Notes: generated by a model not told the origin, from the letters alone. DNA of 64,000 nt from Cyanophora paradoxa CCMP329 (GCA_004431415.1 QPMI01000133.1:186001-250000), one strand, 5' to 3'; counted from the stretch's first letter, positions 11,353 through 47,400 are shown. Program-made: numbers and translations.

Positions 11353-11449
11353 GTTTGCTGCTCGCACTCTATGTAGCTAGATCTGGAGGAGTGAGCCGCC
11401 TGGGGAAGTTGAGATGGGCACCTTTGATGGAAGCATGGGTACGCTAGCG

Positions 11450-14698: not shown

Positions 14699-14716
14699 AT
14701 TAAATACATTCATTGT

Positions 14717-14892: not shown

Positions 14893-15050
14893 GGCATTCT
14901 CTCCTGAGGCCGCAGCAGACCGCGCGCAAGCAACCGGGGCCCCAAGTACACCCACACACGCCCTCCTAAACTCAGTTCCGATATCTCCCTAAACTAACGC
15001 CTAATCAACACGTCCACTCTAGCTCACTAATTTCGCTCAATGATCACGCT

Positions 15051-15124
15051 TATAGGGGTGGACCCCTGATGGTAAAACCAGACTTTGGGGGGCGGTCTGG
15101 TTTGAGGGGGGGTCCTCCCCTTTA
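15051..15124. repeat. GC-rich nested inverted repeat (hairpin) at a compositional junction
   Basis: Outer arms 15051-15066 and 15109-15124 (14/16 complementary). Inner arms AAACCAGAC 15075-15083 and GTCTGGTTT 15095-15103. Confidence 0.85.
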
Positions 15125-15614: not shown

Positions 15615-15636
15615 TATTGTCTGTATAGTATAAAGA

Positions 15637-16662: not shown

Positions 16663-16683
16663 ATTTCTTTCTATTAAGTAGGA

Positions 16684-16950
16684 ATGTCAAATATCTATCA
16701 AGTAGGTCTATCTGATACTGAGAAATTGGGAATGGAATATTGCGCTGCTTCTGTTCAGGATTGGATCGATAATGTGGTTCACAATAGGGCAAGAATTGCA
16801 ATCGATGATATTGTTCAAAAAGAAATTCAATCTTGCATCTCATCAGGAGTTCAAATACCAACCTCAAAGGAAGCGATTGTGTTACAGGCATTCCAAAGGG
16901 GAACTGTAAAGAAAGGCATAGAGTATAATAATCTCACAGAAGAGCAATAA
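16684..16950 (+). CDS. Small helical protein, possible fibre-associated chaperone
   Basis: Clean 88-aa ORF inside the fibre cassette (MEYCAASVQDWIDNVVHNRARIAIDDIV). Function is inferred from context only. Confidence 0.6.
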   Translation: MSNIYQVGLSDTEKLGMEYCAASVQDWIDNVVHNRARIAIDDIVQKEIQSCISSGVQIPTSKEAIVLQAFQRGTVKKGIEYNNLTEEQ

Positions 16951-16985
16951 ACATTATTTTTCTTTCCTTCTTAGTAAAAGAAGCA

Positions 16986-17840
16986 ATGGGCGAATATAAT
17001 CGAGTTCAACTTCCAATATATTCCCTTGGATCCCCAGCAATGCACTTTCGCCAGCATGAAGTTAATGATGAGGTTCGTGGTTTAGAATCCACAGAGAGAC
17101 CCAATTCCAATGGTAACTCCTTTGATAAGAATTCGATTATTCGAGTTAAAGAGCTGAGAGCTGATAAGAACTCAGGTGTGGTGAAAACAACTCGACTCCT
17201 GGTCTCAAATGCGAACTTTTTTCAACCTACTAATGGAGGTCCTGATGCTTACAGTGTTGATCTGAAAGCCCTTGATTTCGATAAGAATTCTGCTGCTGCT
17301 ACAATTCGTTCAGGTGGAGCATTTATTGGTGGTGGCTGTCGAGTTTCAGGTCAACTTTCTTCATCAATTTCGTATAATGATGTCCCAGATACTCTTGAAC
17401 AGAATGTGGAGAACCCACAACGAATTCGGTTCTATACACCAGTTGCACAGCAACCTTTTCTGCATTTCTATGTTGCATCATCTGTCACTCTTGAAAATTC
17501 AGAATTGGTTTCCATTACAGGAACTGATCGAGTGAGAAGGAATATTCCTCTTCCCACAGCAATGCTCTCAATGTGCAGAGCAAATAATAACCAACAGGGT
17601 CACAATTACCTATTCTTTGTTCAAGCATCAAATCATTTCGGTCGGGGATATTGTGTTTATAACAATCTGACATTTACTTATGATTTGTTTGTCACTGAGG
17701 TTGGAGTTTACAATACTATGATTATGGGACTGAGAACAGATATAGCAGCTGTTTCAGCACTTCGTGGGGTAAACATTGCAGATATCTTCACAACAGGGTT
17801 TTACCAGGAACCAGATGTGATTGATAACCCAACCCCATAA
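16986..17840 (+). CDS. Fibre-family paralogue with shared N-terminus and alternative C-terminal domain
   Basis: IIRVKELRADKNSGVVKTTRLLVSN..SGGAFIGGG shared with ORFs 15637 and 17864. Confidence 0.75.
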   Translation: MGEYNRVQLPIYSLGSPAMHFRQHEVNDEVRGLESTERPNSNGNSFDKNSIIRVKELRADKNSGVVKTTRLLVSNANFFQPTNGGPDAYSVDLKALDFDKNSAAATIRSGGAFIGGGCRVSGQLSSSISYNDVPDTLEQNVENPQRIRFYTPVAQQPFLHFYVASSVTLENSELVSITGTDRVRRNIPLPTAMLSMCRANNNQQGHNYLFFVQASNHFGRGYCVYNNLTFTYDLFVTEVGVYNTMIMGLRTDIAAVSALRGVNIADIFTTGFYQEPDVIDNPTP

Positions 17841-17863
17841 ATTATATATCTGTTTAATGTAAA

Positions 17864-18691
17864 ATGGCTGCCCCAGTTGAGAGAATTATTACACCCCAAC
17901 TATCATTAGCAGCACCTGCAAATCACGTTTTGCAGCATGCTACCTTTGATGATGTGGAAGGTCTCCAATCAACAGAAGTCCAACCTACAATGAATACCTT
18001 TGGTTCCACCCACAAACTGAGATTGCAGGAACTCAGGTGTGATAAAAATAATGGTATAGTTAAGACAACGAAACTCCTTGTCACCAATGCAAAGTTTTCT
18101 GCACATTATGGAGACCCAGACAGTTATGGTGATCCTCTTTCTACTTATTCTTTTGAATCTCGGTCGGGAGCTATTAACTGCAAAACGGGGGGAGCATATA
18201 TTGGTGATGGTCTTCGGATTGGTGGAGCTGTGGGTGCGCCTCTTTTCGTAAATGATCAACCCAACCCCATTGATCCCAACACCAGAATTCGCACCTATGT
18301 CCCCAGTATGAATGCACCATATATTATAAAGATCTTCCCAATTGTTGTGAATGAACAGACATCAGTAGTTGATTCTCTTGTTGAGATTGGTGACCACTAC
18401 AAGGTGGTCGTGGATATTCCACCAGATGTTTATGCTGTCTGTCAAGTAGAGGGTGGAACCCCAAATATTGCAGTTGTGATCACCCCATATGACAATTTCG
18501 GAATCGCTTATCATGGAGTGAATTTCGGTCTTGAAGATTACCAGTTCTTGGTGAGAGCCACCAGATTTGGTATCTACAAATGCATTCTCTATGCTGAGAG
18601 AACCGATGCTATTGCAAGACAGAATACATATGCAGAGTATTACGGCACAAATCGATACTTCCCCATTTTCGGGCAGGATACTGCTCCATAG
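17864..18691 (+). CDS. Fibre-family paralogue with shared N-terminus and alternative C-terminal domain
   Basis: LRLQELRCDKNNGIVKTTKLLVTN..TGGAYIGDG. C-terminus (RIRTYVP..NFGIAY..GIYKCILYAERTD) is homologous to that of ORF 16986. Confidence 0.75.
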   Translation: MAAPVERIITPQLSLAAPANHVLQHATFDDVEGLQSTEVQPTMNTFGSTHKLRLQELRCDKNNGIVKTTKLLVTNAKFSAHYGDPDSYGDPLSTYSFESRSGAINCKTGGAYIGDGLRIGGAVGAPLFVNDQPNPIDPNTRIRTYVPSMNAPYIIKIFPIVVNEQTSVVDSLVEIGDHYKVVVDIPPDVYAVCQVEGGTPNIAVVITPYDNFGIAYHGVNFGLEDYQFLVRATRFGIYKCILYAERTDAIARQNTYAEYYGTNRYFPIFGQDTAP

Positions 18692-18716
18692 AAATCTCAG
18701 GTATATATAGAGAGGG

Positions 18717-18989
18717 ATGGATGATAAAACAAAGAAATTCATAGAATCTGCAATGATGGTTCATGGTGATGCTAAATTCGATTATAGTGAGACAGTCTAT
18801 AAGAAAGCGCAAGAGAAGGTCTCTGTTAGATGCCTCAAATGCAACAAGATCCTCCAAACCTACCCATTTAATCATGTAAGGGGAAGTGGATGCAGAGAGT
18901 GCAACAAGAAATCCTCTCATGCTTACAGAAAAAAGACTACATCAGGAATTGTTATAGATGATAAACCAGTGGTATTATATTTCGATTAG
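18717..18989 (+). CDS. Stand-alone zinc-ribbon domain of the HGDKYDYS type (DUF723-like)
   Basis: FIESAMMVHGDAKFDYSETVY..VSVRCLKC..PFNHVRGSGCREC resembles the repeat module found on giant-virus and phage endonucleases. No nuclease domain is attached. Confidence 0.7.
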   Translation: MDDKTKKFIESAMMVHGDAKFDYSETVYKKAQEKVSVRCLKCNKILQTYPFNHVRGSGCRECNKKSSHAYRKKTTSGIVIDDKPVVLYFD

Positions 18990-19135
18990 ATCTTTGAGAG
19001 AGAAATGAGAATCTTTCCCCATTTTCCCTTGGTGATTATGCATGTGTCAAAACAGTTTGGACAGGTCTTGTGGTAGTGCAGCAGAATGATATCCACCAAC
19101 TCATAAGGTAGCACTCTTGCTAAGATGGTTCGCAT
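18986..19135 (-). CDS. 49-aa ORF with an F-box-like start (not in ORF track)
   Basis: MRTILARVLPYELVDIILLHYHKTCPNCFDTC...SKI* fills the gap between neighbouring genes. Confidence 0.4.
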   Translation of the reverse strand: MRTILARVLPYELVDIILLHYHKTCPNCFDTCIITKGKWGKILISLSKI

Positions 19136-19175
19136 TCTACCAATCGCGTTTTTAATTTTTCTAAATTATTCATAA

Positions 19176-19577
19176 ATGAATACTCATCGAGGCTTCCATG
19201 TGATGCTGGATTACAAATTCAGAACCCAATTAGCAGTAGGAGTGGAAAACTTGGAGACAACAACCAGGTGGTTAATGCAGTTCTTGCAAACTATTATTCA
19301 AGAGCAAGGTATTCGAGTAGTTCACAAGCATTGCGAGATTTTCGATGGTGGTATTTCTCCTCCTGGTTTTGCAATGGTTCTTCTGCTGGATGAGAGCCAC
19401 TGCACTGCTCACTGTTACTCAAATGAAGGTATGTTGGCGATTGATATATTCAGTTGTGGATTAGAAGCAGAGAGAAAAACCACGAGAGTATCTCATGAGA
19501 TAGATGAGAGAATAACAGGTGTGTTTTCAGGGTTGGAGAAATCGGAGAAACATAGAGTATTGCGATTTCCGAGTTAG
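19176..19577 (+). CDS. speD: Prokaryotic-type pyruvoyl-dependent S-adenosylmethionine decarboxylase family proenzyme
   Basis: GFHVMLD, PPGFAMVLLLDESHCTAHCY (E/SH self-cleavage site) and AIDIFSCG. 133 aa. Confidence 0.88.
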   Translation: MNTHRGFHVMLDYKFRTQLAVGVENLETTTRWLMQFLQTIIQEQGIRVVHKHCEIFDGGISPPGFAMVLLLDESHCTAHCYSNEGMLAIDIFSCGLEAERKTTRVSHEIDERITGVFSGLEKSEKHRVLRFPS

Positions 19578-19609
19578 TTGACACTGAGAAATTCAGAATT
19601 TCAGATGGT

Positions 19610-20092
19610 CTTACTGAAAATGGTCAGATAATCGGGTGTGACACCTATTTAATTGACTGTGACGCCTCTTTAATTGACTGTGACGCCTGTGACGCCTGTG
19701 ACGCCTACTTTCAAACTTTTTAAAATTTTCAAAAATTACAGACTTCTGAAAACAGCCGTCACAGCCGTCACAGGCGTCACACCCAATTAACAATGGAATC
19801 TCTTTCTCTTACTGAGATTTTCGAGAATATATTCTTGTCTTACTGAAATCCGTCTTGTGACACCTCTGACACCTACAAAACACTATCCATTAATCAACCT
19901 TTTTGAAAATGCGAAGTTGGCTTACTGGAAATGGTCTGCAATTTCGCTGTGACACCTAATTTAATTGAGTGTGACGCCTGTGACGCCTGTGACACCTACT
20001 TTCAAACTTTTTAAAATTTTCAAAAATGACAGACTTCTGAAAACAGGCGTCACAGCCGTCACAGGCGTCACAGACATTCCACCCCTCTTACT
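19610..20092. repeat. Two copies of a roughly 180-bp unit with inverted 9-bp iteron triplets around an AT-rich core
   Basis: (TGTGACGCC)x3, A/T tract, (GSCGTCACA)x3 at about 19610-19790 and about 19921-20092. Confidence 0.9.
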
Positions 20093-31562: not shown

Positions 31563-32495
31563 GGTTCGTGAATCTCAGGGGGGTACGAGGGGGGCCGTCG
31601 AGGACGCCCTGAAGCCTGAAGCCTGAACGGGAGCCGGGGGAGGGGGGGGAGGGGGATGGGGGGGGGGGGGCGAAAGCGGCGGGCTGCCAGGCTGCAGAAG
31701 ACGAATGGAGGAATGAAGGATTGCCCCGCGCCGCGGGGGGAGGGCGCGAGTCCTGCGGGGCGCGGCGCAGTCAGTGCGGGGGAGGGGTACGAGGCAGGCG
31801 GGGACGGGCCGGGGCGGGGACCTGCAGGCGGGGTACGAGGGCGAGGGCGATGCTGCTGGAGCGCCCCGCCCCGCCGACCATCGAATCCCCGCGGCCTGTC
31901 GCCCCCAGCCGGGCCGACGAGCTTGATCACGCGAGTTTCAGCAGCGGGGGCCGGGCTGATGGGCGCGGCGGGAGCGAGAGCTCGAGCTGCACTGCCGCAG
32001 TGCGCATGCACGAGCTCGAGCATAGTCCTGGGCGTCCACGCCACGCCAGTGCTGGCCCGTGGGCGCCCACGCCACGGCCCGGCGGTCCGCGCGAAATCGA
32101 GAGCATGCGCAGGCCTAGGCTGTCGATCGAAGCTGGGCGAGCGTGCGTCCGCGCTCGCGGATCGGCACGCGAGCTCCTGCTTCGCTCGGCGCGCGAGACT
32201 CCGCTCCGCTCCGCGCGCGAGCCTCCGCTCCGCGACGGATCAGGAGGGGTTGCTCGTCGCGAGAAGTTGCTCAAGCTTACCTGTGACAGACGACCGTCTG
32301 ACAGGAGCACATCAACTTCGACTTAGCGCATATATAGCTTGTCATCAAGCCGCTCCCGAAGGGGCGAGCCGCGAGGCGGCGAGGTCAGGGGGGGGGTACA
32401 CTTCGTCGCCGAATCTTGCGTACGTAGCAGTCAGCTCGAGCAGCTGCAGTTAGCGCAGATCGGGAAGGGATATCGGCTCGCAGCTCGCATATGCG

Positions 32496-35400
32496 ATGGG
32501 CTGCGGCGCCAGCAGCGTTTGCGGGGGCGGGGGAAACGCCCCCCACGCGGTGCAAGAGCAGCTCGAGCCGGTTATCGATCCACCTGCGAACAACAGAAGT
32601 GATACGCGTGATGACGCAGCTGCGGGGAACGGGCATCTGGGCCCTCCGGATTCCGCGCTAGCTATAGCGCTGTCCGCAAAAGAAGCGCAAGCCCCGAAGG
32701 AGCAGCGCCCTAGCGGGCTCTACGGCATGTGCGAGCCGGAGGAGCTGAAGAAGATCCAGCGGGTCGAGCAAGTGCAGACCGCCGCGCAGCTCGCGGGCCT
32801 GCTCCGATCGGAGCTTGTTCGCGCCGCCGCTATCGCGAGCAAGGACCCGGAGAAGGAGGTGCCACCGATGCTTCGCGCGGTCGAAGACCTGGCTCGGAGA
32901 GGAAATGCGGAGCAAGTCCTACGGAACATCTGCGACGAAGGCGCGTACGTACACGTACAAGGACGCGCGGCCGCCGGGCCGGGTGCCCCGGCTGCGGACC
33001 TCGGGCCGCGCCCCCGCACCACGGCTGACCGTTCTAACACGTGCATTTGCTGTGCGCAGTGCTGAGCGCCTTCTCGGCCACCCAGTCGCTCGCGCTCTCG
33101 GGGGACATTGCGGCCCTCGTCCACTCCGGCGACCCCCACCTGTGCCGCAGGGTTCGACCCGCCGCGCCCCGCCCCGCCCGGCGCCCCGCCGCGCCGTCGA
33201 TCCGAGGGGCCGGCGCCGGCTCCTCAGCTGGTGGACGTGCTCCTGCGGAAAGCGAACAGTGCGGAGCTGGCAGACCTCGCGACCCTCTCCGCGCTCGCCT
33301 ACGCCGCGGGGCACCTTCCCCCAGACACGCTCTTCCCCTCCGACTGGACCGCCGTCCTCGACTTCGCATCCGAGCAGGCGAGCCGCCGCGCCGCGCCGCC
33401 CGCCGGCGCCGCCTGAAGCGGCGCGAACGCGCAGGTTGAGCTGCTGAGCGCGGAGGGGCGGGGCCTGGGCCCGAGCGACGCGGAGGCGCAGGTCGCCCTC
33501 GAGCTCACCGCCGCCGTCCTCGCCGCCTACGAGGCCGCCTCCAGCGGCCCCGCCGCCCCGCCGCCCCCGCCGCCGCCGGCGTCGCCGCCGGTGTCGCCGG
33601 CATCGCCGCCCCCGCCGCTGGGGAGGCCGACGACGCCGCCTCTGCCGCCTCGCCGCCCGCCGCCGCCGCCGCCGCCGGCGTCGCCGCGCCGGCTCCGAAA
33701 GGTGCGATATGACTCCCCCAACCCCCCTCCAACATCCAACGCCCCCCTCCCCCCCCTCTCCCTTCGCCTTACCCCTCCCCATCCCCCCCCCCCCAACACC
33801 TCTACTCATTCCTCTTCTCTCCCCAATCCCGCCACCCCTCCCCCTGAGCAGCGATGATCGGCAAATTCGCCCCCCCCTCCCCCCCCCCCGGATTTTTTCG
33901 TTCCTCACGCCCTCCCCCGCCCCCTTCTCCCGAGTCGCGCCCTCCCTTCCCCTTTACCCCTTTAGCCCTCCCCTCGCGCCCCCCTCCGCCCCCCCCCTTC
34001 CCCCACCTCGACAACTCTTCCTCACTTCGCGAAATTCGCGAAATTCCCCGCCTTTTTCCCCGCCCCGTATACGTACCCTTCTCCTCCACTTATCCAGTCG
34101 CGCCATCTTCTCCCCTTCCCCTTCACCCCCTCCCTCTCCTCCCTTTCCCCCCTCGTCCCTCCGTCCCTTTCCCCCCCTCCTCGCCCCCCCCAGCCGAAAG
34201 TCACTGGGTGCCGGCGCACAGGAACTTCGAAGCGGCTGGAAGTCGACGAGAAGCGAATTCAACTGCAGGCGCTGAGCGAGAAGCTTAAGCTCCTGGAGGG
34301 CCACGCCAAGGCCAAGGGGTGGTGGCGGGCGGAGGCGGCGGCGGTGATCGCGGGGCAGGCGCTCACGAGCGTCAGCAGCGGCGGCGAGCGCTTCGGAGAC
34401 GTCGTCCGCCGGTGCAAGGCCGCGGGTTCGACTTTTCATGAGCCTCGGAGCCTCCCAGTCTCCCGACTGAGCTGCACTTGTGACCGCCCAGGGCGAATCG
34501 TGAAGAAACTCTACAAGGCGAGCAAGGTCATCATGGAGGGCGTCTCCTCCATGGGCGCCACGACCGTCATCGACCTCGTCTTCTGGGCCAAGGCGCGCCG
34601 CCGCCGGACCGCCGACCGTGGATTCGAGCAGGGAACCCTGCGGGGCTCGTCGCCACTGACTGGCGAGCCCGCAGGACGTCGTGAGCGACGAAAAGGGGGG
34701 GATACTGGACGCGGCGCGGGAGATGTGGAAGGACGCGCGCATCGTCGTCGGCAAAGGCCCTCAGCTGCAGGGCCAGGGCCCCTGGTCCGCCCTCTCCCTC
34801 GCCCTCGCCCTCGCGACGCGGCCGCGGGGGGCGCGCTGACCGGCGGGGCGGGGCGGCAGGTACGCGCGGGCGAGGCTGATGGGGGCGCTGGCGGCGGGCG
34901 GGCAGCTGGAGGAGCTGGGGACGCTGCTGCGGGACAAGGGCGGGGAGGGGCTCGTGGCCTGCGCGCTGAACCGGCAACTCGCCCTCGTCCTCGCCTCCGC
35001 CCTCGTCCGCGTGCGCACCCACCGTGCCCGGCCAAGGCTCCGCGCATCCCGGCCCCGCCGGTGCATTCGGAATGTTCACATTGGCTCCTTGGAGGCAGGC
35101 GGCGGAGGGGACGGACGCGGCCCAGGCGGCGGCGGCGGTGGGCCTGCTCAAGAGCCTCGCCGAGAAGGCGGGGGAGCTGGGCGGGGCGGACGCGGCGCGG
35201 ATTGCGGCGAGAGCCCTCGGGGACCTGTCGCAGCTCGACGACGGCGGCAGCGGCGCGGCGCGGGCGGGCTGGGAAGCCCTCCAGAGCCTGGCGGAGTTCG
35301 CCAAGCGGGAGGGGGCGAAGCTCCCGGCGGCGGCGCAGGCGGCGGCCTCGGCCAGCGCGGCGGTCGGCTGCCTCGCCGGCTTCCGGCGCGGGGCGGTACG

Positions 35401-38400
35401 CGTCATCGAGGGCGGCGTCGGGCTCGCGGAGGACGTGGCCGAGATCGTCTCGGACGTGCCCGGCCTCGAACGGGCGGCCGGCGTGGCCGGCGAGCTCGCG
35501 GCGGCGGCGCGCCGCGCCAAGGACGCCCCGCTCGTGCAGGGCGCCCTGCGCGTCCTCGCCGCGCCCGAGGAGCTCCTGGGGCTGGCGTCGGCCGCGTCCT
35601 CCGCCGCGCCCCTGCAGCGGGGCTCGGGTTCTCGCGATCGGCCGCCGCCCCGGAAGTCCACGTCGACGTCGAAGTCGGCGCCGCCGGGCACGCTGAAGAG
35701 GGCGCCGCCCCTGCTCCCGACCCTGCTGGGGGCCGGGCAGCAGAGGAACGGCTACCTCGAGGAAGTGCTCAAGAAGTACAAAGTGGCGGTGCGCGCCCCG
35801 GCCGTCCGGATCCACGGCCGCCGCCTGCGCGCCTAAACGCCAACCGGGGCGGGGGTCGGGACTTTGGCGTGGCAGGTGGACGCGGCGCAGAAGGAGCTCG
35901 ATGTGAAGCGGGCGCACGTCCACGGGCGGAAGGAGGACCTGAATGACCCCAGAATCCTCCCGCTGCTCTTCGAGCTCTCCGGTTACGTCGAACTCTGGTT
36001 GCGCCGCCCGCTGTCTGCGGCTCCAGCCGCCCGGCCCGCTTCCCGCCCTCCCCTCTGAGCGTGGCCGCAGCGGGTCGTCGAAGCCATGCCGCAGCTGCCT
36101 GGAGATGGTGTGCGCGAGCCCGGCATTCGTCTTCGTCGCGAGCCGAGAGACGGCGAGCGACGCGGCCTGCCTCAAGGCCCTCGACGAGGGTGCGCCAGCT
36201 CTAGATCGAGACTAGCGCACTCACTGAGCTTCCTTGGCACCATCCGCAGCGATCGAGACGGGGCAGGAGGTCTTCCAGTTCTACTTGAACGGGGTGGAGA
36301 GCGTCCTCGAGGCGATGCCCGTCGGCGTCGACATGCGCCTCAGCCGCTTCGACGACGTGCGGCGGATAATTATAATCCCAATATCCTTCAATCCACCTCT
36401 CCGTCCTCTCCAGCGAGAGTTGCAGTTGATCGAGCGCCGCAGTGGCAGCTGGATGCGGAGGCTCGGTGGAAGCTCGACGTTGCTGAAGCCACCCGAGCCC
36501 GTCTGAATAAGGAAGACCCTCTAGAAAAGTTCGCGCGCGGCATGCAGATGAAGTGCCGCTACCCTCGCTTGCGCGGCGAGCCGGCGGCCAGTCGCCAGCG
36601 GGTCACAGCGCGCTGGTACGGCGGCGCTGAAGGCTCGAGCTCGAGCTCGGAGCCGCGGGCACCGCCGCCCGCCCCCAAATGGGTCGTCGAAGCGACGGCA
36701 ACAGCCGAAGCCTATTTCGGTGCTCGCGTCTTCTTCTGCCACGGCCACACCCCAGAGGACTCGAAGATCGTTCAAACGTACTCGGCTTCCTTGGAGCGCG
36801 TCGCGTCTTGCTGGTACGCCCGCTGGTAAATGCCCGCGCTGCTCATGATCATGGATAAACGCGCGGCGGCGCCGCAGGTCCGAGGCCGAGCACTGGGAGA
36901 AGGGGGAGCGCTGGGTCGACTTGGGTGCGCGTGACGCGTCGCATCGCCGCGCGTCTCTAGGTCTAATGTCGAGCTCACCTCCGCCGCAGTGGCCCGCGCC
37001 ATACGCAACTGCACCCATTTCGTCATCATTGTGTCCCCGGCCGCCGAGCTCGAGGATTCGCAGGTCCGCGGCCCCCGATTGGGTCTGAAAATCGCGACAG
37101 CAGCCTATCGGACCCCGATATATCGCGATATTGATCGACCCCGGTATTATATTAATCGATCACTCATGCACGGCCTCGGCAGCATTTCAAGGAAGAAGTC
37201 GCTTACGCGTGCAGCCGGGACTGCACATGCGCCCTGGTCGCCTTGCACCTGAAGCAGCCTGGGAAATCGACCGAAGACCTGTACCAGTGGATCGAGAAAC
37301 GCCTGGGGCGCGCCGCGCCCGGCCGCGTGCAGAGGATTCAGGTCCCCGTCGACACCAACCCAGTGCACGTAGCGTCCAAGCTCGAGACCGCTTTGAAAAC
37401 GCGACCCCGGGCGATTGCAGAGCGCGCGATCGTTGTGGCCGCACCCGCAGGCGCAGCTGCAGGCGCGGTCCCAGTTGCAGGCCCATCAGCAGCTGCAGCA
37501 GCCCGGCCGTACGCGTGGGCGGGGCCTCAGACGGGCCAGATGCAGCCGGTGCGTTGCGCTCTTCGATCTGTTGGCCCATGTATTTAGAGCTGATGCGGTG
37601 TGCAGGCAAACGCGCTCTTCTGGACGGAGGCGGGTGTCGACAACTGGATCCGATCGCAGGGGCTCCTCGAGCAGTGCGCTGCCTGCAGCCGGCGCCGTGC
37701 ACACGGCCGCGCTGGCTAGCGTTTTTAACTGATCGCGGAATGCACGGATCCCGGAGCAGATTTGCGGAGCGATTATCACACTTGGAAGGGAGGGGCCTCC
37801 TCTCGCTCACCGACTCGGCCCTGAAGCAGCTCGGCATCGACAACGTCGCTGCGCGCAAGCGCCTTCTGCTGAAGATTGCGACCTTGTCCGAGGCCGCACT
37901 GGAGAACTGCGACAAGGAGGTGCCGCGAAGCGATATATATGGAAGTGTTCTTCTGCAGCGATTCACGCCTGTGCAGAATGAGCCGCTGTGCTGGACCGAG
38001 GAGGAGGTCGTGGCCTGGGTCCGCTCAAAGGGGCCCCTCGCAAAGTGCGCGACGCGCAAGCGCTCTTCTCGTCTGCATCTGCCCCCCGCTCTGCTGTTTT
38101 TTTACGGTGGCACCAGGTTCGCCGACCTGTTCGCGTTCACGGGGGGCCCCGAGCTGCTCTCGCTCTCCGACGCGGACCTCGTGGACATGGGCGTGGACAG
38201 CTTCCCGGCGCGGCAGCGGCTCCTCGTCAAGATCGCCGAGCTTGAAGCGAAGGCAATCGCAAAGTCGCTCAAGCTGCACGGCGCGGCAAACGCTACCACA
38301 GAGTCACAGGTTGTCGAGGTGACGGCGCTGATCATGAGGCCATGCAGTCGTGTGTGCGTATTGCAATTGACAGAGATTCGCACCGGCAGGCTCCGGCTCC

Positions 38401-41400
38401 GGCTCCGGCACCAGCCGAGGTCGATGGCATCCGAGCATCGATCTCAAAAGTGCGCTAAGAATCCTATAATTATATAAACTAAAACTAAGGGCTCCTCGAG
38501 TTATTCACATAAATTCAAGCTTGCGGCTCCTTGAGTGTCCTTGAATTGCTTGTGGAGATCTAGAGTACTAGTATGCCCCTTCCTTTAAGATTCGAACATC
38601 ACCATCAGTTTTCGCAATCTTGATTCGTGCAACGGACATGTACAGTTTGCTGTGGAGGTGTCCGACGAGCTCCGCCAGGACCAGGACCTCGCGCTCTACG
38701 TCCCGCCCCTCGCCACCCCGGACCCCAAGCTGCCGCCCAAGGTGGCCCCCGAGCTCCCCGCTCTAGATCTGAAACTAGGCCTGCTGCGTGCACGCGGCTT
38801 CATTGTGACCCCGCCCCCCTCGAACAGCAACACGTGGACCTCCACGAAAGGGCGATGAAGTTTCTTAAGGCGCTGCGGCCCGGCGCCAACACCAACGTCA
38901 ACGCCGGCGACGCTGCAACCGGCCCCGCAAAGCCGAATTCGAAGCGTGTGTTGTTGTTACTGGGCGGCGCGGGCACGTCGAAGAGCACATTCGTCCGCTT
39001 TCTGGAGCGGGACGTCTGCGAGCAATGGGCAAAGTCGGAAGACAGTTTAGACCCGGAGCTGCCTGTCACAGTGCTGGTTTCGCTGCCGCAGCTCGTCAGC
39101 GCCATGGGCGGCGTGCAAAAAGGCCGAGGCCTGCGGCAGCACGTGGCCGCCAAACTCGGCGTGGCTTCAGAGGCGCTTCCAGCTCTCCGAGACAGGTACT
39201 CATGCATCTCGTCTAAATTTGTGTTGTTTCTTCGGATCTGTTTCGCTGATGCATGCGTCAGCTTCGGGCTCGTGCTTCTTCTCGATGGGTATGATGAGAT
39301 GGGCGTAAAAGACGGCGTGAATCTGTGGCAGGAGAACGGCGTTTCGGACTGGGCGAGCGGCGCGCTTCTCACATGCCGAACGGAGTTTCTCGCTTCGCTC
39401 CCCGTTGACAAGCCGCACGAGGTGCTTTCTTTTTCCTCTCCGATGTTCCGCTTTTCTGAGTGCTATCTGAGTCTGTCGATGCTCTCATTAATGATCCGAT
39501 GCTTTTGGAGTCGTGCCATTTGAGTCGCAATCGCGCCTTGCAGGCTTTCTTTGCTCCTGCCGAAAAGGACGGCAAACACGACGAGTCGGCGCTGGCGCAG
39601 CTGCACACTGTCCCCTTCACAATTAAGCAGGTGCACGGTTGCAGAACTTTTTAATGAGAGAACGGGTGTTCCGATTCAGCGCGAGATATTCAAATGCTCC
39701 GGTGCAGCGGGACGACTACCTTGAAAGCTACGTCAAGCACCACAAGGACGATGAAGCGGCATGGACCCTCCAGCAGTACCAGTCGGCCCTCGCAAATACT
39801 CCGGGCCTGGCCGCATTTGCCGAGAACCCTTTCTCCCTGTCAATGGCCGCCCGCGTCCTGCCCACCAAGTCCGCAGCTCGCAAGTAAACAGAGAGACACT
39901 GCACCGATGTGTTGCGCAGGACGACGACAGGAGGACGGCTCGGGATGCGGGACCTGTACCGGCTGTTCCTGCGGGACTGGCTGAGGCGCGAGCTGTATCG
40001 GGGCGGCGCCGAAATTCCGCGGGATGTCGAAGGTGCAGCGCAGAAGCTGAAGCTTGCATGCTTCTAGGGCTTACAGCGCAGCCTGCGGTCGGTTACAGTC
40101 CGGCAGCGGGCTGAGGACAAGTTCGTCGAGGAGGGGACGGAGCTCTGCAGGCGCCTTGCATGCATTCTCTTCCGCGTGCGTTCGGAATTCGGCTTCGATT
40201 TTACTCGATCGGTTTCGGAAACGTTCATTGCGCAGATGTCAGCAAGCCAGGCGACGATCCCGGACCCGCGGGTCCAGGGACAGCAGAAAGCGGATGCTGG
40301 CGCGATTTCGATGTCGAGCCCCGAGCAGGGCGCCCTCTGCGAGCTTCTAGGCGACCGCAGGACGCTCGACGTGCGCAACAGCTGCCCGCTGCGGCGGTGG
40401 CGGGCGGGCGGCTCGCTCGGCTTCTCGTTCGTCCACAAGACCCTCGGCGAGTTCCTCGTCGCCGAGGCCCTCCTCGAGTCGGTGCGCTCGCTCGCAGTCT
40501 GTTGAGGGCGCCGCTGTCCTTTTAATAGCGCCCGCAGCTGTCGGACGGCGGTAAAGAGTCGGCAGAGAAGGACGTGGCGATTAGCTTCGGAACGCGGTAT
40601 GTACATTTTGTTGTGTTTTCCGTGCTCTGTCCGACGCAGGGGGGCGCAGGAGCATCGTGGAGGAGACGACCCTCGTCCGCTTCCTGGCGGAGGCCGTGCA
40701 GCACGAGCCAGCAGCAGCTTTTGGAGACTCGCTGGTGAGCCTCGTGGAGCAGAGCCGCCACGTCGCGGGGGACGGCGACGGCGCGCCGGCGGTCCTCGCA
40801 GCCGCCAACGCCGCGACAGTGCTCGTCGCTGGTGGGCCACGGCCGGACTCTTCAAATGCATTCTCCACTGTCCTTACGCTGTGCAGCGCACTTTTCGCTG
40901 GCGGGGAGAGATCTGCGACGCGTGCGGATCCCGAAGGCGAACCTGTGGCGCCTGGAGGCGGCCGGGGCGAACCTGCAGGGGGCAGACATGCGTGGCTGCT
41001 CACTCGCCGAGGCGTGCCTCGCGGGGGCAGACCTCGGAAGGGCACGCCTCCAGGGCTGCCGAATCCCGCAGTGGCCCGCAATGATGCATCCGGCTCATGT
41101 GACCGCCGTGGCGTGGTTTCCGGTACATCTTTCGATCAGTTCAAAGAGCTCAAACACTCGCGTCCAGTTTCTGAGTGAGGCACAGGACGGGCGGCGTATT
41201 GTGACGGGGAGCGACGACCAGTCAGTGCGGGTGTGGGACGTGGAGACGGGGGCGGAGCTGCTGCAGCTGCAGGGCCCCGCGGCTGCAGCCACTGTCTACT
41301 CGGTGGCAGTCTCAGCGGTGCGCAGGGTGGGGAGCCAGTGCTAGGCTGAGGCAGCCAGATCTAGAGAGCGCGAGGCGATGGCAGTGCGGGGAGCCCCGTA

Positions 41401-44400
41401 CACGTGGGTAGCAATAGCGGCGCAGGCCTGGGGCCGGGGCCCCGAGCCAGGGCCAAGATCTAGAGGCATGCCGGCGGGTCCGGAAGGGAGTGGGGTGGCG
41501 TCGGGGCGCAGCGGAGGGGTGCTGACTCGACGGGGCGCGGTGGCGGGGCGCAGGACGGGCGGCGGATCGTATCAGGGAGCTGGGACGTCGACGACTCGGT
41601 GCGGGTGTGGGACGTGGAGACGCGGGCGGAGCTGCTGCAGCTGCAGAACCGCACATTCTGGGCGGTCTCGGCGGTGCGCAGGGCGGGGAGCCAGTGCAAG
41701 GCTGGGGCAGGCAGAGAGCGCAAGGGGATGGCGGTGCAGGGCGCCCTGCAGGAAGCAAAAAAGGCGAAGGGCCGGGGCCAGGGCCCCAAGCCAGAACCGA
41801 GATCTAGAGGAATGCGGGTCGGTTTGAAGGGGAGTGGGGCAGCGAAGGAGCTTGGCGGAGGGGCGCTGACGCAATGGGGCGTGGCGGCGGGGCGCAGGAC
41901 GGGCAACGGATTGTGTTGGGGAGCGATGACAAGTCGATACGGGTGTGGGACGTGGAGACAGGGGAGGAGCTGCTTCAGCTGCAGGGCTACAGGAGCGGCG
42001 TCACCTCGGTGGCAATCTCGGCGGTGCGCAGGGCTGGGAGCCAGCGCTAGACTGAGGCAGGCAGAGAGCATGAAGGGATGGCAGCGTGGGGTGGCCTGCG
42101 GATAGCAAAAAAGGCGAAGGGCCGGGGCCCGGGCCCCAAGCTTAAGCCAGGACCGAGATGTTGAGGCATGCCAACGGGTTTGATGGGGAGCGGGGCGGCG
42201 TAGAGGCGCGTCGGAGTTGTGCTGACTCAACGGGGCGCTGCGGCGGGGAGCAGGACGGGCGGCGGATTGTGTCGGGGAGCAACGATGACTCGGTGCGGGT
42301 GTGGGACGCGGAGACGGGGGCGGAGCTGCTGCAGCTGCAGGGCCACACACAACGCGTCACCTCGGTGGCAATCACGGTGGTGCGCAGGGCGGGGAGCCAG
42401 TGCTAGGCTGAGGCAGGCAGAGAGCGCAAGGGATGATCATGATGGCGCGTTGTGCTCCCGGAGTCCACGGGAAGCTAAAGAAGCAATGGGCCGGGGCCGG
42501 GGCCCCGAGCCAGGACCGAGGTCTAGAGGCGTGTGGGAAGGCTCAGAGGGGAGCCGGACAGCAAAGTAGCGCGGCGGTGGAGTGCTAACTCGATGGGGCA
42601 TGGCGCCGGGGCGCAGGACGGGCGGCGGATTGTGTCAGGGAGCGACGACAAGTCAGTGCGGGTGTGGGACGTGGAGACGGGGGCGGAGCTGCTGCAGCTG
42701 CAGGGCCACACAGAACACGTCACCTTGGTGGCGGTCTCGGCGGTGCGCAGGGCGGGGAGCAGTGCTAGGCTGAGGCAGGCAGATCTAGAGAGCGGGAGGC
42801 GATGGCAGTGCGGGGATCCCCGTGGGTCGCAATAGCGGCGAAGGGCCAGGGCCGGGGCCCCGAGCCAGGACCGAGGTCTAGATTCTTTACTATGCCGGCG
42901 GGTTCAGAGGGGAGGGAGGCAGTGTCGAGGCGAAGCAGAGGGGTGCTGACGCAATGGGGCGCGGCGGTGGGGCGCAGGACGGGGGACGAATCTTGTCGAG
43001 GAGCAATGACATCACGATATCGATGCGGGTGTGGGACGCGGAGACGGGGGCGGAGCTGCTGCAGCTGGAGGGCCGCACATTCTGGGCGGTCTCGGCGGTG
43101 CGCAGAGCAGGATGCTAGTGCTAGGCTGAGGCAGGCAGAGAGCGTGAGGGGATAGCGGCGGGAGGCGCCCCGCAGGAAGCAAAGAAGGTGAAGGGCCGGG
43201 GCCAAAGCCCCGAGCCAGGACCGGAATCTAGAAGCATGCGGGTTGGTTCCGGAGGGTAGAGGGGCGGCGTCAGACGGCGGCGGAGGGATGCTGACGCGAT
43301 GGGGCACGGCGGCGGGGCACAGGATGGGCGGCGAATCGTGTCGGCGAGCTCCCATGACTCGGTGCAGGTGTGGGACGTGGAGACGGGGGCGGAGCCGCTG
43401 CAGCTGCAGGGCCACACGGATAGCATCAACTCTGTGGCGGTCTCGACGGTACGTAGGGCGGGGAGCCAATGCTAGGCCGAGGCAGGCAAACTCTGAGAGA
43501 GCGCAAGGGGATGGCGGAGCGGGGGGCTCTGCGCAGTGCGGGTAAGAAAAGAGGCAAAGGGCCGGGGTCGCGATCAGGGCCGGGCTGGGGCCCCGAGCCA
43601 GGATCAATATCCAGAGGCATGCAGGCGGGTCGGGAGGGGAGCAGAGCAGTGTCGGAGCGCAGCGAAGGTGCACTGATGCGATGGGGCGGGGTGCCGGGGT
43701 GCAGGACGGGCGGCGGATTGTGTCGGGGAGCGACGACAAGTCAGTGCGGGTGTGGGACGCAGAGACTGGGGCGGAGCTGTTGCAGCTGCATGGCCACGCG
43801 TGGGGAGTCAACTCGGCGGCGGTCTCGGCGGTGCGCAGGGTGGGGAGCCAGTGCTAGTCTGTCACAGGAAGAGAGCGCAAGGGGAAGACAGCGCGGGGTG
43901 CCCAGCGGATAGCAAATTAAAAGAGGCAAAGGGCGGGGGCCGGGCCCCCGGGCCCCGAGCCAGGACCGAGATATAGAGGCATATGTTGCCGGCCGGTCGG
44001 GAGGGGAGCACAGCAGTGTTGGAGCACAGTGGAGGGGTGCTGACTCGATGGGGCGTGGCGGCGGGGCGCAGGACGGGCGGCGGATTGTGTCGGGGAGCCT
44101 CAAAAAGTCGATGCGGGTGTGGGACGCGGAGACGGGGGCGGAGCTGCTGCAGCTGCAGGGCCACAGGGGCACCGTCACATCAGTGGTGTTCTCGGTGGTG
44201 CGCAGGGCGGGGAGCCAGTGCTAGACTGAGGCAGGCAGAGAGCGCAATGGGGTGGCCGTGCGGGGAGCCCCCTGGGTTGCAATAGTGGCGAAGGCCTGGG
44301 GCCGGGGCCCCGAGCCAGGAATGAGATCTAGAGGGTCTAGAGGGGAGCTGGGCGGCGTCAGCGCACAGCCAAGGGGTGCTGACGCGATGGGGCGGGGTGC

Positions 44401-47400
44401 CGGGGCGCAGGACGGGCGGTGGATCGTGTCGGGCGGCTGGGACGACTTGGTACGGGTGTGGGATGCAGAGACAGGGGCGGAGCTGCTGCAGCTGCAGGGC
44501 CACGCGGGCGGCGTCACCTCGGTGGCGGTCTCGGTGGTGCGCAGGGCGGGGAGCCATTTCTAGGCTGAGGCAGGCAGAGAGTGTGAGGGGATGGCGGCGC
44601 AGGGCGGCCTGCGGGTAGCAATAGCGGCAAAGGGCCGGGGCTGTGGCCCCGAGCCAGGTCCAAGATGCATGTGGGCAGGTCCAGAAGAGAGTGGGTTGGC
44701 GTTTGGGGCGCGGTGGAGGGATGCTGACACGATTGGGCACGGTGTCGGGGTGCAGGACGGGCAGCGGATTGTGTCGGGGAGCACCGATGAGTCGGTGCGG
44801 GTGTGGGACGCAGAGACAGGGGCGGAGCTGCTGCAGCTGCATGGCCACACGGGCTTCGTCAACTCAGTGGCGGTCTCGGCGGTGCGCAGGGCGGGGAGCC
44901 AGTGCTAAGCCAAGGCAGGCACTGCGGCAGAGAGCGCAATGGGATGGCGGTGCGGGGAGCCCCCTGGGTAGCAATAGTGGCGAAGGCCTGGGGCCGGGGC
45001 CCCGAGCCAGGACCTAGATCTTGAGGCATGCCAACGGGTCCGATGGGGAGCGGGGCGGCGTAGAGGCGCGTCGGAGTTGTGCTGACTCAACGGGGCGCTG
45101 CGGCGGGGAGCAGGACGGGCGGCGGATTGTGTCGGGGAGCAACGATGACTCGGTGCGGGTGTGGGACGCGGAGACGGGGGCGGAGCTGCTGCAGCTGCAG
45201 GGCCACACACAACGCGTCACCTCGGTGGCAGTCTCGGCGGTGCGCAGGGCGGGGAGCCAGTGCTAGGCTGAGGCAGGCAGAGAGCGCAAGGGATGATCAT
45301 GATGGCGCGTTGTGCTCCCGGAGTCCACGGGAAGCTAAAGAAGCAATGTGCCGGGGCCGGGGCCCCAAGCCAGGACCGAGGTCTAGAGGCGTGTGGGAAG
45401 GCTCAGAGGGGAGCCGGACAGCAAAGTAGCGCGGCGGTGGAGCGCTCACTCGATGGGGCATGGCGCCGGGGCGCAGGACGGGCGGCGGATTGTGTCGGGG
45501 AGCGACGACAAGTCGATACGGTTGTGGGACGTGGAGACGGGGGCGGAGCTGCTGCAGCTGCAGGGCCACACACAACGCGTCACCTCGGTGGCAGTCTCGG
45601 CGGTGCGCAGGGCGGGGAGCAGTGCTAGGCTGAGGCAGGCAGATCTAGAGAGCGGGAGGCGATGGCAGTGCGGGGATCCCCGTGGGTAGCAATAGCGGCG
45701 AAGGGCCAGGGCCGGGGCCCCGAGCCAGGAAAAGGATCTAGAGGCATGCCAACAGCGGAGCGGGGCGGCGTCGGAGCGCAGCCGAGGGGCCCTGACGCGA
45801 TGGGGCGTGGCGGCGGGGTGCAGGATGGGCGGCGGATTGTGTCAGGGAGCGACGACCAGTCAGTGCGGGTGTGGGACGCGGAGACGGGGGCGGAGCTGCT
45901 GCCGCTGCAAGGCCACAGGGGCATTGTCAAATCGGTGGCGGTCCCGGTGGTGCGCATGCGCAGAGCAAGATGCCAGTGCTTCGCCACCGGGCTGAGGCAG
46001 ACAGAGAGCTTATACATAAGGGGATGGCGGGGCAGGGCGGCCCACAGGTAGCAAAAGATCAAGAGGGGAAGGGCCGGGGCCGGGGCCCCAAGCCGGGACC
46101 GGAATCTAGAGGAATGCCGGCGGGTCTGGAGGGAGCGGGGCAGTGGCGGGGCGCAGCAGAGGGGTCCTGACGCGATGGGGCGGGGTGCCGGGGAGCAGGA
46201 CGGGCGGCGAATTGTGTCAGGGAGCGACGACAAGTCGATACGGGTGTGGGACGTGGAGACGGGGGAGGAGCTGCTGCAGCTGCAGGGCCACGCGGGCAGT
46301 GTCAACTCGGTGGCAATCTCGTCGGTGCGCAGGGCAGGGAGCCAGTGCTAGGCTGAGGCAGGCAGAGAGCGCAAGGGGATGGCAGCGCTGGGTGGCCCGC
46401 AGGAAGCAAAAGAGGGGAAGGACCAGGGCGGGGGCCGCAAGCAAGGACCGAGATCTAGAGGCTGCGGGCATGCCGGCAGGTCTGGATAGTAAGAGAGTGG
46501 GGCAGCGTCCAGGGGCGGCAGAGGAGTGCTGACGCAATAGGGCACGGCGGCGGGGCGCAGGACCGACGGCGGATTGTGTCAGGGAGCGATGACAAGTCAG
46601 TGCGGGTGTGGGACGCAGAGATGGGGGCGGAGCTTCTGCAGCTGCAGGGCCACACGGGCAGCGTCAACTCGGTGGCAGTCTCGGCGGTGCGCAGGGCGGG
46701 GAGCCAGTGCTAGGCTGAGGCAGGCAGAGAGCGCAAGGGGATGGCGGAGCGGGGGGCTCTGCGCAGTGCGGGTAGCAAAAGAGGCAAAGGGCCGGGGCCG
46801 GGGCCCCGAGCCAGGACCAATATCTAGAGGCACGCGGGTCGGTCCAGAGGGGAGCGTGGGGGTGGGATGCTGGCACTGATGCGATGAGGTGCGGTCATGA
46901 TCATGGGATGCAGGACCGGCGGTGGATCGTGTCGGGGAGCGATGACTACTCGGTAAGGGTGTGGGACGCGGAGACGGGGGCGGAGCTGCTGCAGCTGCAG
47001 GGCCACACGGGCAGCATCATGTCGGTGGCGGTCTTTGCAGTGCGTGGCGTGGCTGCGGGGAGCCACGGCTAGGTTGCTCTCGCTAACCGATTGGCTTTTA
47101 TGCTTATGATCATAATAAAGCTTCTAGCTGCATTTTCTGACCTGATTGCACGGCACAGGACGGCGTCGTTACGCGCTCAGCTTCGGGCCGTGCACTGGCG
47201 TGGGCGCTCCCCTCTGGAGAGCCCACCGACCCGGCGTCCATCGATCCGGCGTTCAGTGATCCGGAGGAGGAGGAGAGCGAGGAGGAGGAGGAGGGTGAGG
47301 AGGGCGATCGCGCAAGTCGAAGTGTTCCATTCGCCGTCTGTTTGCTTCCCGTGCGCTCAGCCACCGCCATTAAAAATTATAGCTAGCGTCTTCGTTGGGC

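What the first reader, a model, noticed from the sequence alone, without database searches (positions are those of the whole stretch)
32496..41100. TIR-SAM-SAM-NACHT receptor with a possible lipid anchor
Seen after manual splicing: TIR-like VFFCHGH / [61 protein letters not shown] (about 36724-37260) with a Glu at the catalytic position. Then two SAM domains (about 37760-38255), a NACHT with atypical Walker [10 protein letters not shown], and pentapeptide repeats. MGCGAS at 32496 fits N-myristoylation and palmitoylation. Known: TIR plus tandem SAM drives NADase activation in SARM1, and NACHT-WD40 proteins are fungal non-self receptors. Inference: an unusual hybrid immune receptor in an alga-like protist.
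Basis: partly seen in the sequence, partly recalled or inferred. Interest (0 to 1): 0.72.

Follow-up and report, generated by a model that had tools for sequence, protein, structure and literature searches.

The report
Giant algal TIR-SAM-NACHT-like WD40 receptor gene
One long spliced gene of the glaucophyte alga Cyanophora paradoxa encodes a TIR domain, two SAM domains, a likely NACHT-type ATPase, pentapeptide repeats and 17 WD40 repeats on one protein, which is predicted to act as an intracellular immune-type sensor that would cleave NAD+ when triggered; the proposed lipid anchor is possible but unproven.

Summary
Spliced RNA contigs put the TIR-like segment, both SAM domains and the P-loop NTPase on one transcript. 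The locus is an annotated but uncharacterised Cyanophora paradoxa gene: EukProt P001918 (P0002) maps exactly onto window 32727-44560.

On that product, Pfam gives TIR_2 at 37.0 bits (cut-off 28) and SAM_1 at 57.4 bits in two stretches. The Glu of HFKEEV sits at the catalytic-Glu position in alignments to solved TIR NADases, at weak E-values.

The NTPase is NACHT-like but misses Pfam's cut-off (15-16 bits against 26.7). Support comes from its motifs and its nearest ESM Atlas clusters.

The gene is far longer than reported. My model has 49 exons, CDS 32496-47072 and 2,651 residues, ending in 17 one-repeat WD40 exons.

MGCGAS fits the acylation motif, but which start codon is used is open. Both structure predictions failed. 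Three paralogues share the architecture. Verdict: a new variant of TIR-STAND-repeat receptors. Any immune or NADase function is inferred.

The parts
32496..47072 (+). Coding region of one gene as modelled: 49 exons, 48 introns, 2,651 codons with no stop.
   Evidence: Model and frame check. Of the 48 introns:
- 18 are seen directly in RNA contigs.
- 10 are fixed by record-length arithmetic on those contigs.
- 20 come from the exact mapping of annotated protein P0002 and from GT/GC-AG plus frame logic.
32491..32493 (+). Upstream out-of-frame ATG. It has weak context (C at -3, C at +4) and opens a 57-codon ORF that overlaps the MGCGAS start.
   Evidence: Sequence read. The ORF 32428-32661 is listed.
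32496..32513 (+). MGCGAS. This is the first in-frame ATG after the stop at 32451-32453, with G at -3 and G at +4. Gly2, Cys3 and Ser6 fit the N-myristoylation plus palmitoylation motif.
   Evidence: RNA contigs reach upstream to 32417. GC3 of codons 1-77 is 0.68, against 0.84 for the coding sequence and 0.55 upstream. The motif rule itself is recalled, not tested.
32514..36727 (+). N-terminal region of about 950 residues with no recognisable domain. It includes a proline-rich stretch in exon 33435-33701.
   Evidence: Pfam finds nothing. The ESM Atlas best score is 0.75, within noise. The region is collinear with paralogues P0001, P0003 and P0004.
36728..37401 (+). TIR domain, residues about 958-1099, split over exons 36443-36813, 36878-36924, 36990-37063 and 37183-37548.
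   Evidence: Pfam TIR_2 E 5.6e-9, 37.0 bits against a cut-off of 28, profile positions 1-92 of 122. The scanned piece is P0002, which maps exactly here. Joint 36812>36877 is seen in RNA.
37195..37197 (+). Codon of Glu1031, the second E of HFKEEV, at the position of the TIR catalytic glutamate.
   Evidence: Invariant in 5 of 5 aligned rows. It aligns with the E of Cat1 'WCWDEL' and of TIR-STING 'WSKFEM' in profile-to-PDB alignments. Those matches are weak, E 0.08 and 0.27.
37606..37919 (+). SAM domain 1, in exons 37606-37673 and 37760-37919.
   Evidence: SAM_1 E 1.9e-15, 57.4 bits, two stretches. The exon lengths add up to the 297 nt that the RNA contig leaves between 37547 and 38117.
37977..38249 (+). 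SAM domain 2, in exons 37977-38044 and 38117-38318.
   Evidence: Second SAM_1/SAM_2 stretch. PDB sequence hits are to SAM domains, for example DGK-delta SAM at E 0.0046. Joint 38044>38117 is seen in RNA.
38828..40481 (+). P-loop STAND NTPase, NACHT-like. Its motifs:
- Walker [10 protein letters not shown], 38963-38989.
- Walker [11 protein letters not shown], 39269-39298.
- LLTCRTEF, 39365-39388.
- [17 protein letters not shown], 40422-40472.
   Evidence: Pfam NACHT E 0.0087-0.017, 15.4-16.3 bits, below the 26.7 cut-off. The paralogue piece gives E 0.01. The nearest ESM Atlas cluster scores 0.98 and 52% of its members carry NACHT. Four introns here are seen in RNA.
40937..41065 (+). Pentapeptide repeats.
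   Evidence: Pfam Pentapeptide E 2.1e-8 on ORF 40739-41344. NCBIfam pentapeptide models hit P0002. RNA contig pieces cover 40886-41121.
41186..47039 (+). 17 WD40 repeats, one per exon. Fourteen exons are 126 nt and the other three are 120, 120 and 132 nt. Each of the first 16 is followed by an intron of 213-256 nt. Together they form a tandem DNA array.
   Evidence: Tandem Repeats Finder: 41179-47034, period 363, 16.4 copies, 73% matches. RNA joints 43096>43322 and 43447>43704 are.

Best explanation
This is one large spliced gene of Cyanophora paradoxa. Its product carries a TIR domain, two SAM domains, a likely NACHT-type STAND ATPase, pentapeptide repeats and 17 WD40 repeats, and it is predicted to work as an intracellular sensor-and-executioner protein of the NLR kind.

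Shown here:
- the domain order and the single transcript;
- TIR_2 and two SAM domains above Pfam's cut-offs;
- three paralogues with the same layout.

Inferred mechanism:
1. The WD40 propellers, perhaps with the pentapeptide solenoid, would hold the protein off until they bind a trigger such as a viral or other foreign component.
2. Nucleotide-dependent oligomerisation of the NACHT-like module, probably helped by the tandem SAM domains as in SARM1, would bring the TIR domains together.
3. The clustered TIR domains would cleave NAD+ or make a nucleotide signal through Glu1031, leading to cell death or a defence state.
4. If translation starts at 32496, N-terminal myristate and palmitate would tether the protein to a membrane.
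For: One transcript:
- A 2,401-nt contig of run X15 runs from 36324 through the TIR, both SAM domains and the P-loop.
- A 1,674-nt contig of X16 runs on to 40406.
- Contigs link 35322 to 36356 to 36443.
- My exon model reproduces the contig's record positions at four checkpoints.
- The contigs lack introns, so they derive from spliced RNA.

One gene:
- The frame is open over 2,651 codons.
- There is a single blastp alignment of the model to paralogue P0001: residues 125-1771 to 1-1528, 49% identity.
- The annotated protein P0002 maps exactly onto 32727-44560.

Domains:
- TIR_2 37.0 bits against 28, and SAM_1 57.4 bits in two stretches.
- TIR_2 40 bits in P0001.
- Pentapeptide and WD40.
- NACHT is the best specific NTPase family, though below cut-off.
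- In the ESM Atlas, the NTPase part scored 0.98 to a cluster where 52% of members carry NACHT. Of the 10 rows shown, 5 name NACHT clusters, and the tool states that the ten best hits with a family share a family or clan.
- Walker B DGYDE, TCRTE and FxHKTLxEFLxAE match NACHT hallmarks as I recall them.

Catalytic Glu: invariant in 5 of 5 rows and aligned to the Glu of Cat1 and TIR-STING.

No transmembrane-like segment: the maximum Kyte-Doolittle mean is 1.82.
Against: - NACHT misses Pfam's cut-off, 15-16 bits against 26.7.
- PADLOC and NCBIfam give no NTPase family.
- PDB sequence search finds nothing for the NTPase.
- Walker A has Ser where the canonical P-loop has its last Gly, so nucleotide binding is unproven.
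- The profile-to-PDB TIR matches are weak, E 0.08-1, and non-TIR chains sit among them.
- Both AlphaFold models were poor, pLDDT 54.9 and 36.5. Foldseek on the TIR model listed no TIR in its 50 rows, so the fold is not confirmed structurally.
- RNA cover is missing for 33686-34147, and no contig was shown linking 33378 to 34283 or 40406 to 40886.
- Nothing here bears on NADase activity, on a ligand or on immunity.
- The runs are only guessed to be RNA.
Confidence: 0.6

Rival explanations
1. Same gene and domains, but the TIR is a non-catalytic assembly or adaptor domain. On this reading the protein is a scaffold that signals through protein-protein contacts (TIR-TIR, SAM-SAM) and not through NAD+ cleavage.
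For: Many animal TIR domains act as adaptors (established knowledge). The Trp of the usual WxxxE-type context is replaced by His, giving SQHFKEEV. The TIR matches to solved NADases are weak, and MyD88 adaptor TIRs score similarly at E 0.9-1.0.
Against: The Glu at the catalytic position is invariant in 5 of 5 rows. The two best PDB matches, Cat1 and TIR-STING, are NAD+-cleaving TIRs as I recall. Passages of bioRxiv 10.64898/2026.04.20.719644 report that many eukaryotic TIRs with this Glu are active.
Confidence: 0.15
2. The architecture is right, but the protein is not an immune sensor. It would be a housekeeping or regulatory STAND protein comparable to animal TEP1/NWD1-type NACHT-WD40 proteins, for example in ribonucleoprotein, cilium or stress biology.
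For: Several WD40 Pfam hits are to TEP1 propeller families. NACHT-WD40 proteins with TIR-like N-terminal domains exist outside classical immunity (passages of bioRxiv 10.64898/2026.09.21.753143). RNA contigs from at most three studies hold the gene, and nothing known to me says the cultures were infected.
Against: The gene belongs to a family of at least four diverged paralogues, 46-63% identical. Its sensor end is a highly repetitive WD40 array with variation focused at a few repeat positions. As I recall, that pattern is typical of diversifying non-self receptors such as fungal NACHT-WD proteins.
Confidence: 0.15
3. Two genes: a 5' gene (32496 to about 36356, no known domain) and a separate TIR-SAM-NTPase-WD40 gene. 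In that case the MGCGAS start has nothing to do with the receptor.
For: No RNA cover at 33686-34147. No contig was shown bridging 33378 to 34283.
Against: - Joint 36356>36443 and the chain 35322-36356 are seen in RNA contigs.
- Exon 34194-34425 has no in-frame Met and needs upstream exons.
- Phases fit across the inferred introns.
- P0001-P0004 each carry the N-terminal region and the receptor part on one model.
Confidence: 0.05

Closest known systems
SARM1 (animal ARM-SAM-SAM-TIR NADase)
   Same: A TIR with a Glu at the catalytic position lies next to exactly two tandem SAM domains. A long N-terminal region precedes them.
   Different: The order is TIR-SAM-SAM, not SAM-SAM-TIR. No ARM repeat was detectable in the N-terminal region. 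A STAND NTPase, pentapeptide repeats and 17 WD40 repeats follow, which SARM1 lacks. SAM self-association is untested.
Plant TNL receptors (TIR-NB-ARC-LRR)
   Same: The three-part logic is the same: a TIR effector, a central STAND NTPase and a C-terminal repeat sensor.
   Different: The NTPase resembles NACHT and not NB-ARC. The sensor is WD40 plus pentapeptide repeats, not LRR. Two SAM domains and about 110 linker residues lie between the TIR and the NTPase. About 950 residues precede the TIR.
TeTIR-NACHT-WD40/TPR proteins (TEP1, NWD1, NWD2; bioRxiv 10.64898/2026.09.21.753143, passages read)
   Same: A TIR-type domain sits upstream of a NACHT-type ATPase with C-terminal WD40 repeats. Some of the WD40 Pfam hits are to TEP1 propeller families.
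   Different: TeTIR is an extended domain of 200-350 residues placed directly before the NACHT. Here a TIR of about 140 residues matches Pfam TIR_2 and is separated from the NTPase by two SAM domains.
Fungal and cyanobacterial NACHT-WD40 STAND proteins (fungal NLRs, PMC4986451, search listing only)
   Same: A NACHT-like NTPase followed by highly similar WD40 repeats. Pentapeptide repeats are also common in cyanobacterial proteins (NCBIfam HetL and Alr5209 hits).
   Different: Different N-terminal effector domains. Here each repeat is its own exon within a 363-bp exon-plus-intron tandem unit.

Membership tests
TIR domain (Pfam TIR_2, PF13676) | Profile match at or above the curated gathering score. 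| tested here: met
   37.0 bits against 28, E 5.6e-9, on the P0002 piece, which maps exactly on the window's exons. The paralogue P0001 scores 40 bits. Single exons alone give no hit.
TIR domain | Flavodoxin-like alternating beta/alpha fold. | tested here: inconclusive
   The AlphaFold2 model from a 5-row alignment has mean pLDDT 54.9. Its secondary structure alternates strand and helix. Foldseek against the PDB lists no TIR among 50 rows, best E 0.31. The VIA-align search could not be run because the machine was busy.
Catalytic (NADase) TIR | Glutamate at the catalytic position after strand beta-C. | tested here: met
   Glu1031 is invariant in 5 of 5 rows. It aligns with the Glu of Cat1 and TIR-STING, but at weak E-values of 0.08 and 0.27. 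That those residues are catalytic is recalled.
Catalytic (NADase) TIR | NAD+ cleavage activity. | not testable with these tools
   Needs an enzyme assay.
SAM domain (PF00536 / PF07647) | Profile match above the gathering score, twice. | tested here: met
   SAM_1 57.4 bits against 23, and SAM_2 50.7 bits against 20.5, two stretches each. PDB SAM chains hit both halves.
SARM1 family | ARM - SAM - SAM - TIR order with an autoinhibitory ARM domain. | tested here: not met
   The order here is TIR-SAM-SAM. No ARM/HEAT family appears in Pfam or in the ESM Atlas.
NACHT NTPase (PF05729) | Profile match at or above the gathering score. | tested here: not met
   15.4-16.3 bits against 26.7 on the window read-through piece. 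16.1 bits on the P0001 piece. The spliced domain of this gene could not be scanned as one piece.
NACHT NTPase | Walker A GxxxxGK[ST]; Walker B hhhhDGxDE with a small residue after the Asp; a downstream TxR-type motif; FxHxxxQEFLAA-type winged-helix motif (features as recalled). | tested here: inconclusive
   Walker [19 protein letters not shown] and [17 protein letters not shown] are present. Walker A is GGAGTSKST, with Ser in place of the last Gly. The three paralogues carry the same TSKST core. The nearest ESM Atlas clusters are NACHT.
STAND / NLR-type receptor architecture | Effector domain, then a central P-loop NTPase, then C-terminal repeats, all on one polypeptide. | tested here: met
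Dually acylated (myristoyl plus palmitoyl) proteins | Mature N-terminus Met-Gly-Cys with a small residue at position 6. | tested here: inconclusive
   The motif is present at 32496. Start-codon use is unknown: there is an out-of-frame ATG at 32491; the annotation starts at Met78; and GC3 of codons 1-77 is intermediate.

The most novel reading that the evidence does not exclude
A glaucophyte alga runs a SARM1-style executioner (a catalytic TIR plus tandem SAM domains) under the control of a NACHT-WD40 sensor, tethered to a membrane by dual acylation. On this reading the animal SARM1 module and the plant and bacterial TIR-STAND logic are combined in one protein, at the base of the Archaeplastida. 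The sensor is built from one-repeat exons in a 363-bp tandem array that could diversify quickly by unequal recombination or exon choice. The gene family may guard against the virus-like elements found nearby.
Probability: 0.25. Interest if true: 0.75.

Novelty: new variant of a known kind. Interest (0 to 1): 0.55.

Why it matters
TIR domains joined to STAND ATPases underlie plant TNL immunity, many bacterial anti-phage systems and, by a recent preprint, animal TEP1-type proteins. SARM1 shows that tandem SAM domains can drive TIR NADase activation. A protein that joins a canonical TIR, a SARM1-like SAM pair and a NACHT-like WD40 sensor, in a basal photosynthetic eukaryote, would give a natural test of two questions. 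First, whether SAM-driven and STAND-driven oligomerisation cooperate. Second, how old TIR-based cell-death switching is in the Archaeplastida.

It also corrects the public gene model: the N-terminus, two internal segments and most of the WD40 array. In my ten searches of the held library I found no paper describing this architecture in Cyanophora or other algae.

Tried and rejected
Searches that found nothing useful:
- No whole genome is held for this window.
- A homologue search with exon 36443-36811 found nothing.
- A search of 1.84 billion representatives with the TIR C-terminal exon found 3 proteins. Two are paralogues and one is a repetitive 967-aa protein.
- A PDB search with that exon gave only two designed repeat proteins at E 0.03-0.07, taken as chance.
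- Pfam on single exons gave no TIR or NACHT.
- PADLOC gave only two weak TIR rows for P0001 and nothing for the NTPase.
- NCBIfam gave pentapeptide hits only.
- The ESM Atlas gave nothing above noise for the N-terminal 760 residues of P0001.
- Earlier scan notes: none for this genome.

Structure and complex predictions:
- Both structure predictions were poor: TIR pLDDT 54.9, and the NTPase read-through piece 36.5.
- Foldseek on the TIR model found no TIR.
- The VIA-align search was never accepted because the machine was busy.
- Complex prediction on four copies of the SAM pair returned 'no answer', score 0.00.

RNA evidence that does not count:
- No run is on record as RNA; the RNA label of X15-X18 is the tool's guess.
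- No RNA cover was shown for 33686-34147.
- Loose ends at 33399, 33568, 34326, 34860 and 35267 match nothing in the window. I take them as unrelated GC-rich contigs.
- Non-GT-AG 'joints' within 33405-35325, and those reaching 38389 and 49642, lie in low-complexity sequence and were dropped.
- Joint 45238>45823 is not exon skipping. The last 70 nt of the exons ending at 45239 and 45602 are identical.

My own errors:
- My first SAM1 model (exon 37689-37885) was wrong and was replaced.
- I first guessed a haptophyte, but the organism is Cyanophora. PMC12489294 is therefore only context.

Full report
**What is there.**
The window is GC-rich (0.59-0.79) from about 28 kb onward.

Pfam on the raw stop-to-stop ORFs gave only SAM, Pentapeptide and WD40, because the TIR and NTPase regions are split by introns. 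No whole genome is held for this window.

**Transcript evidence.**
Twenty public runs hold the stretch. Fourteen, guessed to be DNA, hold 0.91-0.93 of the sampled words. Six, guessed to be RNA, hold 0.12-0.39. I laid four of the latter, X15-X18, which represent at most three samples and three studies. Their contigs lack introns with GT..AG ends, so they derive from spliced RNA.
- A 2,401-nt contig of X15 covers 36324-36356, then 36443-36812, 37179-37547, 38117-38316 and 38826-39192.
- A 1,674-nt contig of X16 continues through 39259-39419, 39704-39868 and 40236-40406.
- Upstream, contigs join 35322-35787, 35875-35996, 36070-36188, 36249-36356 and 36443.
- The 5' contig joins 32434-32938, 33058-33150 and 33227-33378.

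Of the 48 introns in my final model:
- 18 are seen directly;
- 10 are fixed by the lengths the contigs leave between anchored pieces;
- 20 rest on the annotated protein, on splice signals and on frame.

RNA cover was not shown for 33686-34147. That stretch is a C/T-rich tract bounded by GT at 33702 and AG at 34193.

**Identity of the locus.**
A homologue search with the P-loop exon found P0001, and a second search found P0001-P0004. All four carry EukProt 'tig...' names, and P0001 and P0002 were looked up as Cyanophora paradoxa entries. P0002 (EP00741_Cyanophora_paradoxa_P001918) maps segment by segment, exactly, onto window 32727-44560. It is therefore the public model of this very gene.

P0002 differs from my model at five places.
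- Where the RNA contigs decide, they keep 37363-37548 and 34283-34379, both of which P0002 splices out.
- They agree with P0002, against my first attempt, on the SAM1 exons: 99 codons equal the 297 nt left by the contig.

The other three proteins are paralogues. They are 46-63% identical and collinear from the N-terminal region to the repeats.

**Gene model.**
The model has 49 exons and 45 GT-AG plus 3 GC-AG introns. The CDS is 32496-47072, 2,651 codons with no stop. The finding's end at 41100 is therefore too early.

**Domains.**
- TIR and SAM. On a 328-residue piece of P0002, identical to the window's spliced product over the TIR_2 match, Pfam gives TIR_2 at E 5.6e-9 (37.0 bits, cut-off 28, profile 1-92 of 122). 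SAM_1 scores E 1.9e-15 in two stretches. P0001 scores 40 bits for TIR_2.
It kept ten extra residues ([10 protein letters not shown]). The contig length and all the paralogues exclude them.
- Catalytic Glu. The motif [16 protein letters not shown] is shared by the four proteins. Glu1031 is invariant in 5 of 5 rows. A profile of these rows finds TIR chains first in the PDB (Cat1, TIR-STING, Toll-receptor-related 2, MyD88), but weakly, at E 0.08-1. It aligns Glu1031 with the Glu of 'WCWDEL' and 'WSKFEM'.
- NTPase. The P-loop exon alone gives AAA_16 at E 0.02 and no NACHT hit. NACHT is the best specific Pfam family but lies under its cut-off: 16.1 bits on P0001's piece, and 15.4-16.3 bits on the window's read-through piece, against 26.7. 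The nearest ESM Atlas clusters are bacterial NACHT proteins, top score 0.98 with 207 of 256 shared features. Walker B ([10 protein letters not shown]), LLTCRTEF and [17 protein letters not shown] match NACHT hallmarks as I recall them. Walker A is atypical (GGAGTSKST), and the three paralogues carry the same TSKST core.
- Repeats. Pentapeptide repeats (E 2.1e-8) are followed by 17 WD40 repeats.

**The WD40 array.**
Each repeat is one exon: fourteen of 126 nt, two of 120 nt and one of 132 nt. Each of the first 16 is followed by an intron of 213-256 nt. At DNA level the array is a tandem of period 363, with 16.4 copies and 73% matches. Among the 15 repeats of 42 residues as entered (one of them entered 6 nt too long and out of register, later corrected to 120 nt), variation concentrates at positions 10-12 and 31-35. 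An apparent exon-skipping joint, 45238>45823, is an artefact of two exon ends that are identical over 70 nt.

**N-terminus.**
- MGCGAS is the first in-frame ATG after a stop. It has G at -3 and +4, and it lies within RNA contigs that reach 32417.
- An out-of-frame ATG with weak context sits 5 nt upstream.
- The public models start at Met78 or later.
- GC3 of codons 1-77 is 0.68, between the coding average of 0.84 and the upstream value of 0.55.
- No transmembrane-like segment exists.

The lipid anchor is thus plausible, at about even odds, but untested. The first 950 residues have no recognisable domain.

**What failed.**
Both AlphaFold runs, each with only five rows, were of low confidence. 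Foldseek on the TIR model was uninformative. The complex test of the SAM pair gave no answer. The spliced protein itself could not be given to Pfam or the structure tools.

**Interpretation.**
The architecture is that of a STAND (NLR-type) receptor: a TIR effector, an oligomerising NTPase and a repeat sensor. Its unusual addition is a SARM1-like SAM pair between the TIR and the NTPase. All functional steps are inferred from the families involved: ligand sensing by the WD40 repeats, nucleotide-driven and SAM-assisted oligomerisation, and Glu-dependent NAD+ cleavage.

The closest described systems are:
- SARM1;
- plant TNLs;
- fungal and cyanobacterial NACHT-WD40 proteins;
- the TeTIR-NACHT-WD40 family (passages of bioRxiv 10.64898/2026.09.21.753143).

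This protein differs from each of them in domain order or type. Ten searches of the held library found no description of it. Supplements were not consulted.

**Verdict.**
I class it as a new variant of a known kind.

Noticed in passing
window 1-20000 (ORFs 3463-4326 +, 5664-6881 -, 6823-10179 -, 15634-16662 +): A low-GC block (0.40-0.50, against 0.65-0.79 downstream) lies about 12 kb upstream of the receptor gene. It encodes a Pox_A32-type packaging ATPase (E 3e-8), an rve_3 integrase (E 2.3e-8), a protein-primed family-B DNA polymerase (DNA_pol_B_2, E 4.7e-52) and a C1q-domain ORF. That gene set is the one known from Polinton/Maverick-like integrated virus-like elements.
   Followed up: no
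window 41179-47034: The WD40 sensor is a 363-bp exon-plus-intron tandem array, so introns are repeated along with the exons. Two exon ends share 70 identical bases. Short-read assemblies and gene predictors are therefore likely to mis-build this part. The public model P0002 reads through some of the introns and stops at 44560.
   Followed up: partly
window 33702-34193: An inferred 492-nt intron made almost entirely of C and T runs. It has no RNA cover and is the longest intron in the model, whose median intron is 86 nt.
   Followed up: partly
window 37363-37548 and 34194-34379: The public annotation P0002 removes these in-frame segments as introns, but RNA contigs keep them: 37179-37547 appears in contigs of four runs, and 34283-34424 in a contig of X15. 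Paralogue P0004 has matching residues for the first segment.
   Followed up: yes
window 32940/32941, 33377/33378, 34592/34593: Three of the 48 introns use GC-AG ends. Two of them are seen directly in RNA contigs.
   Followed up: partly
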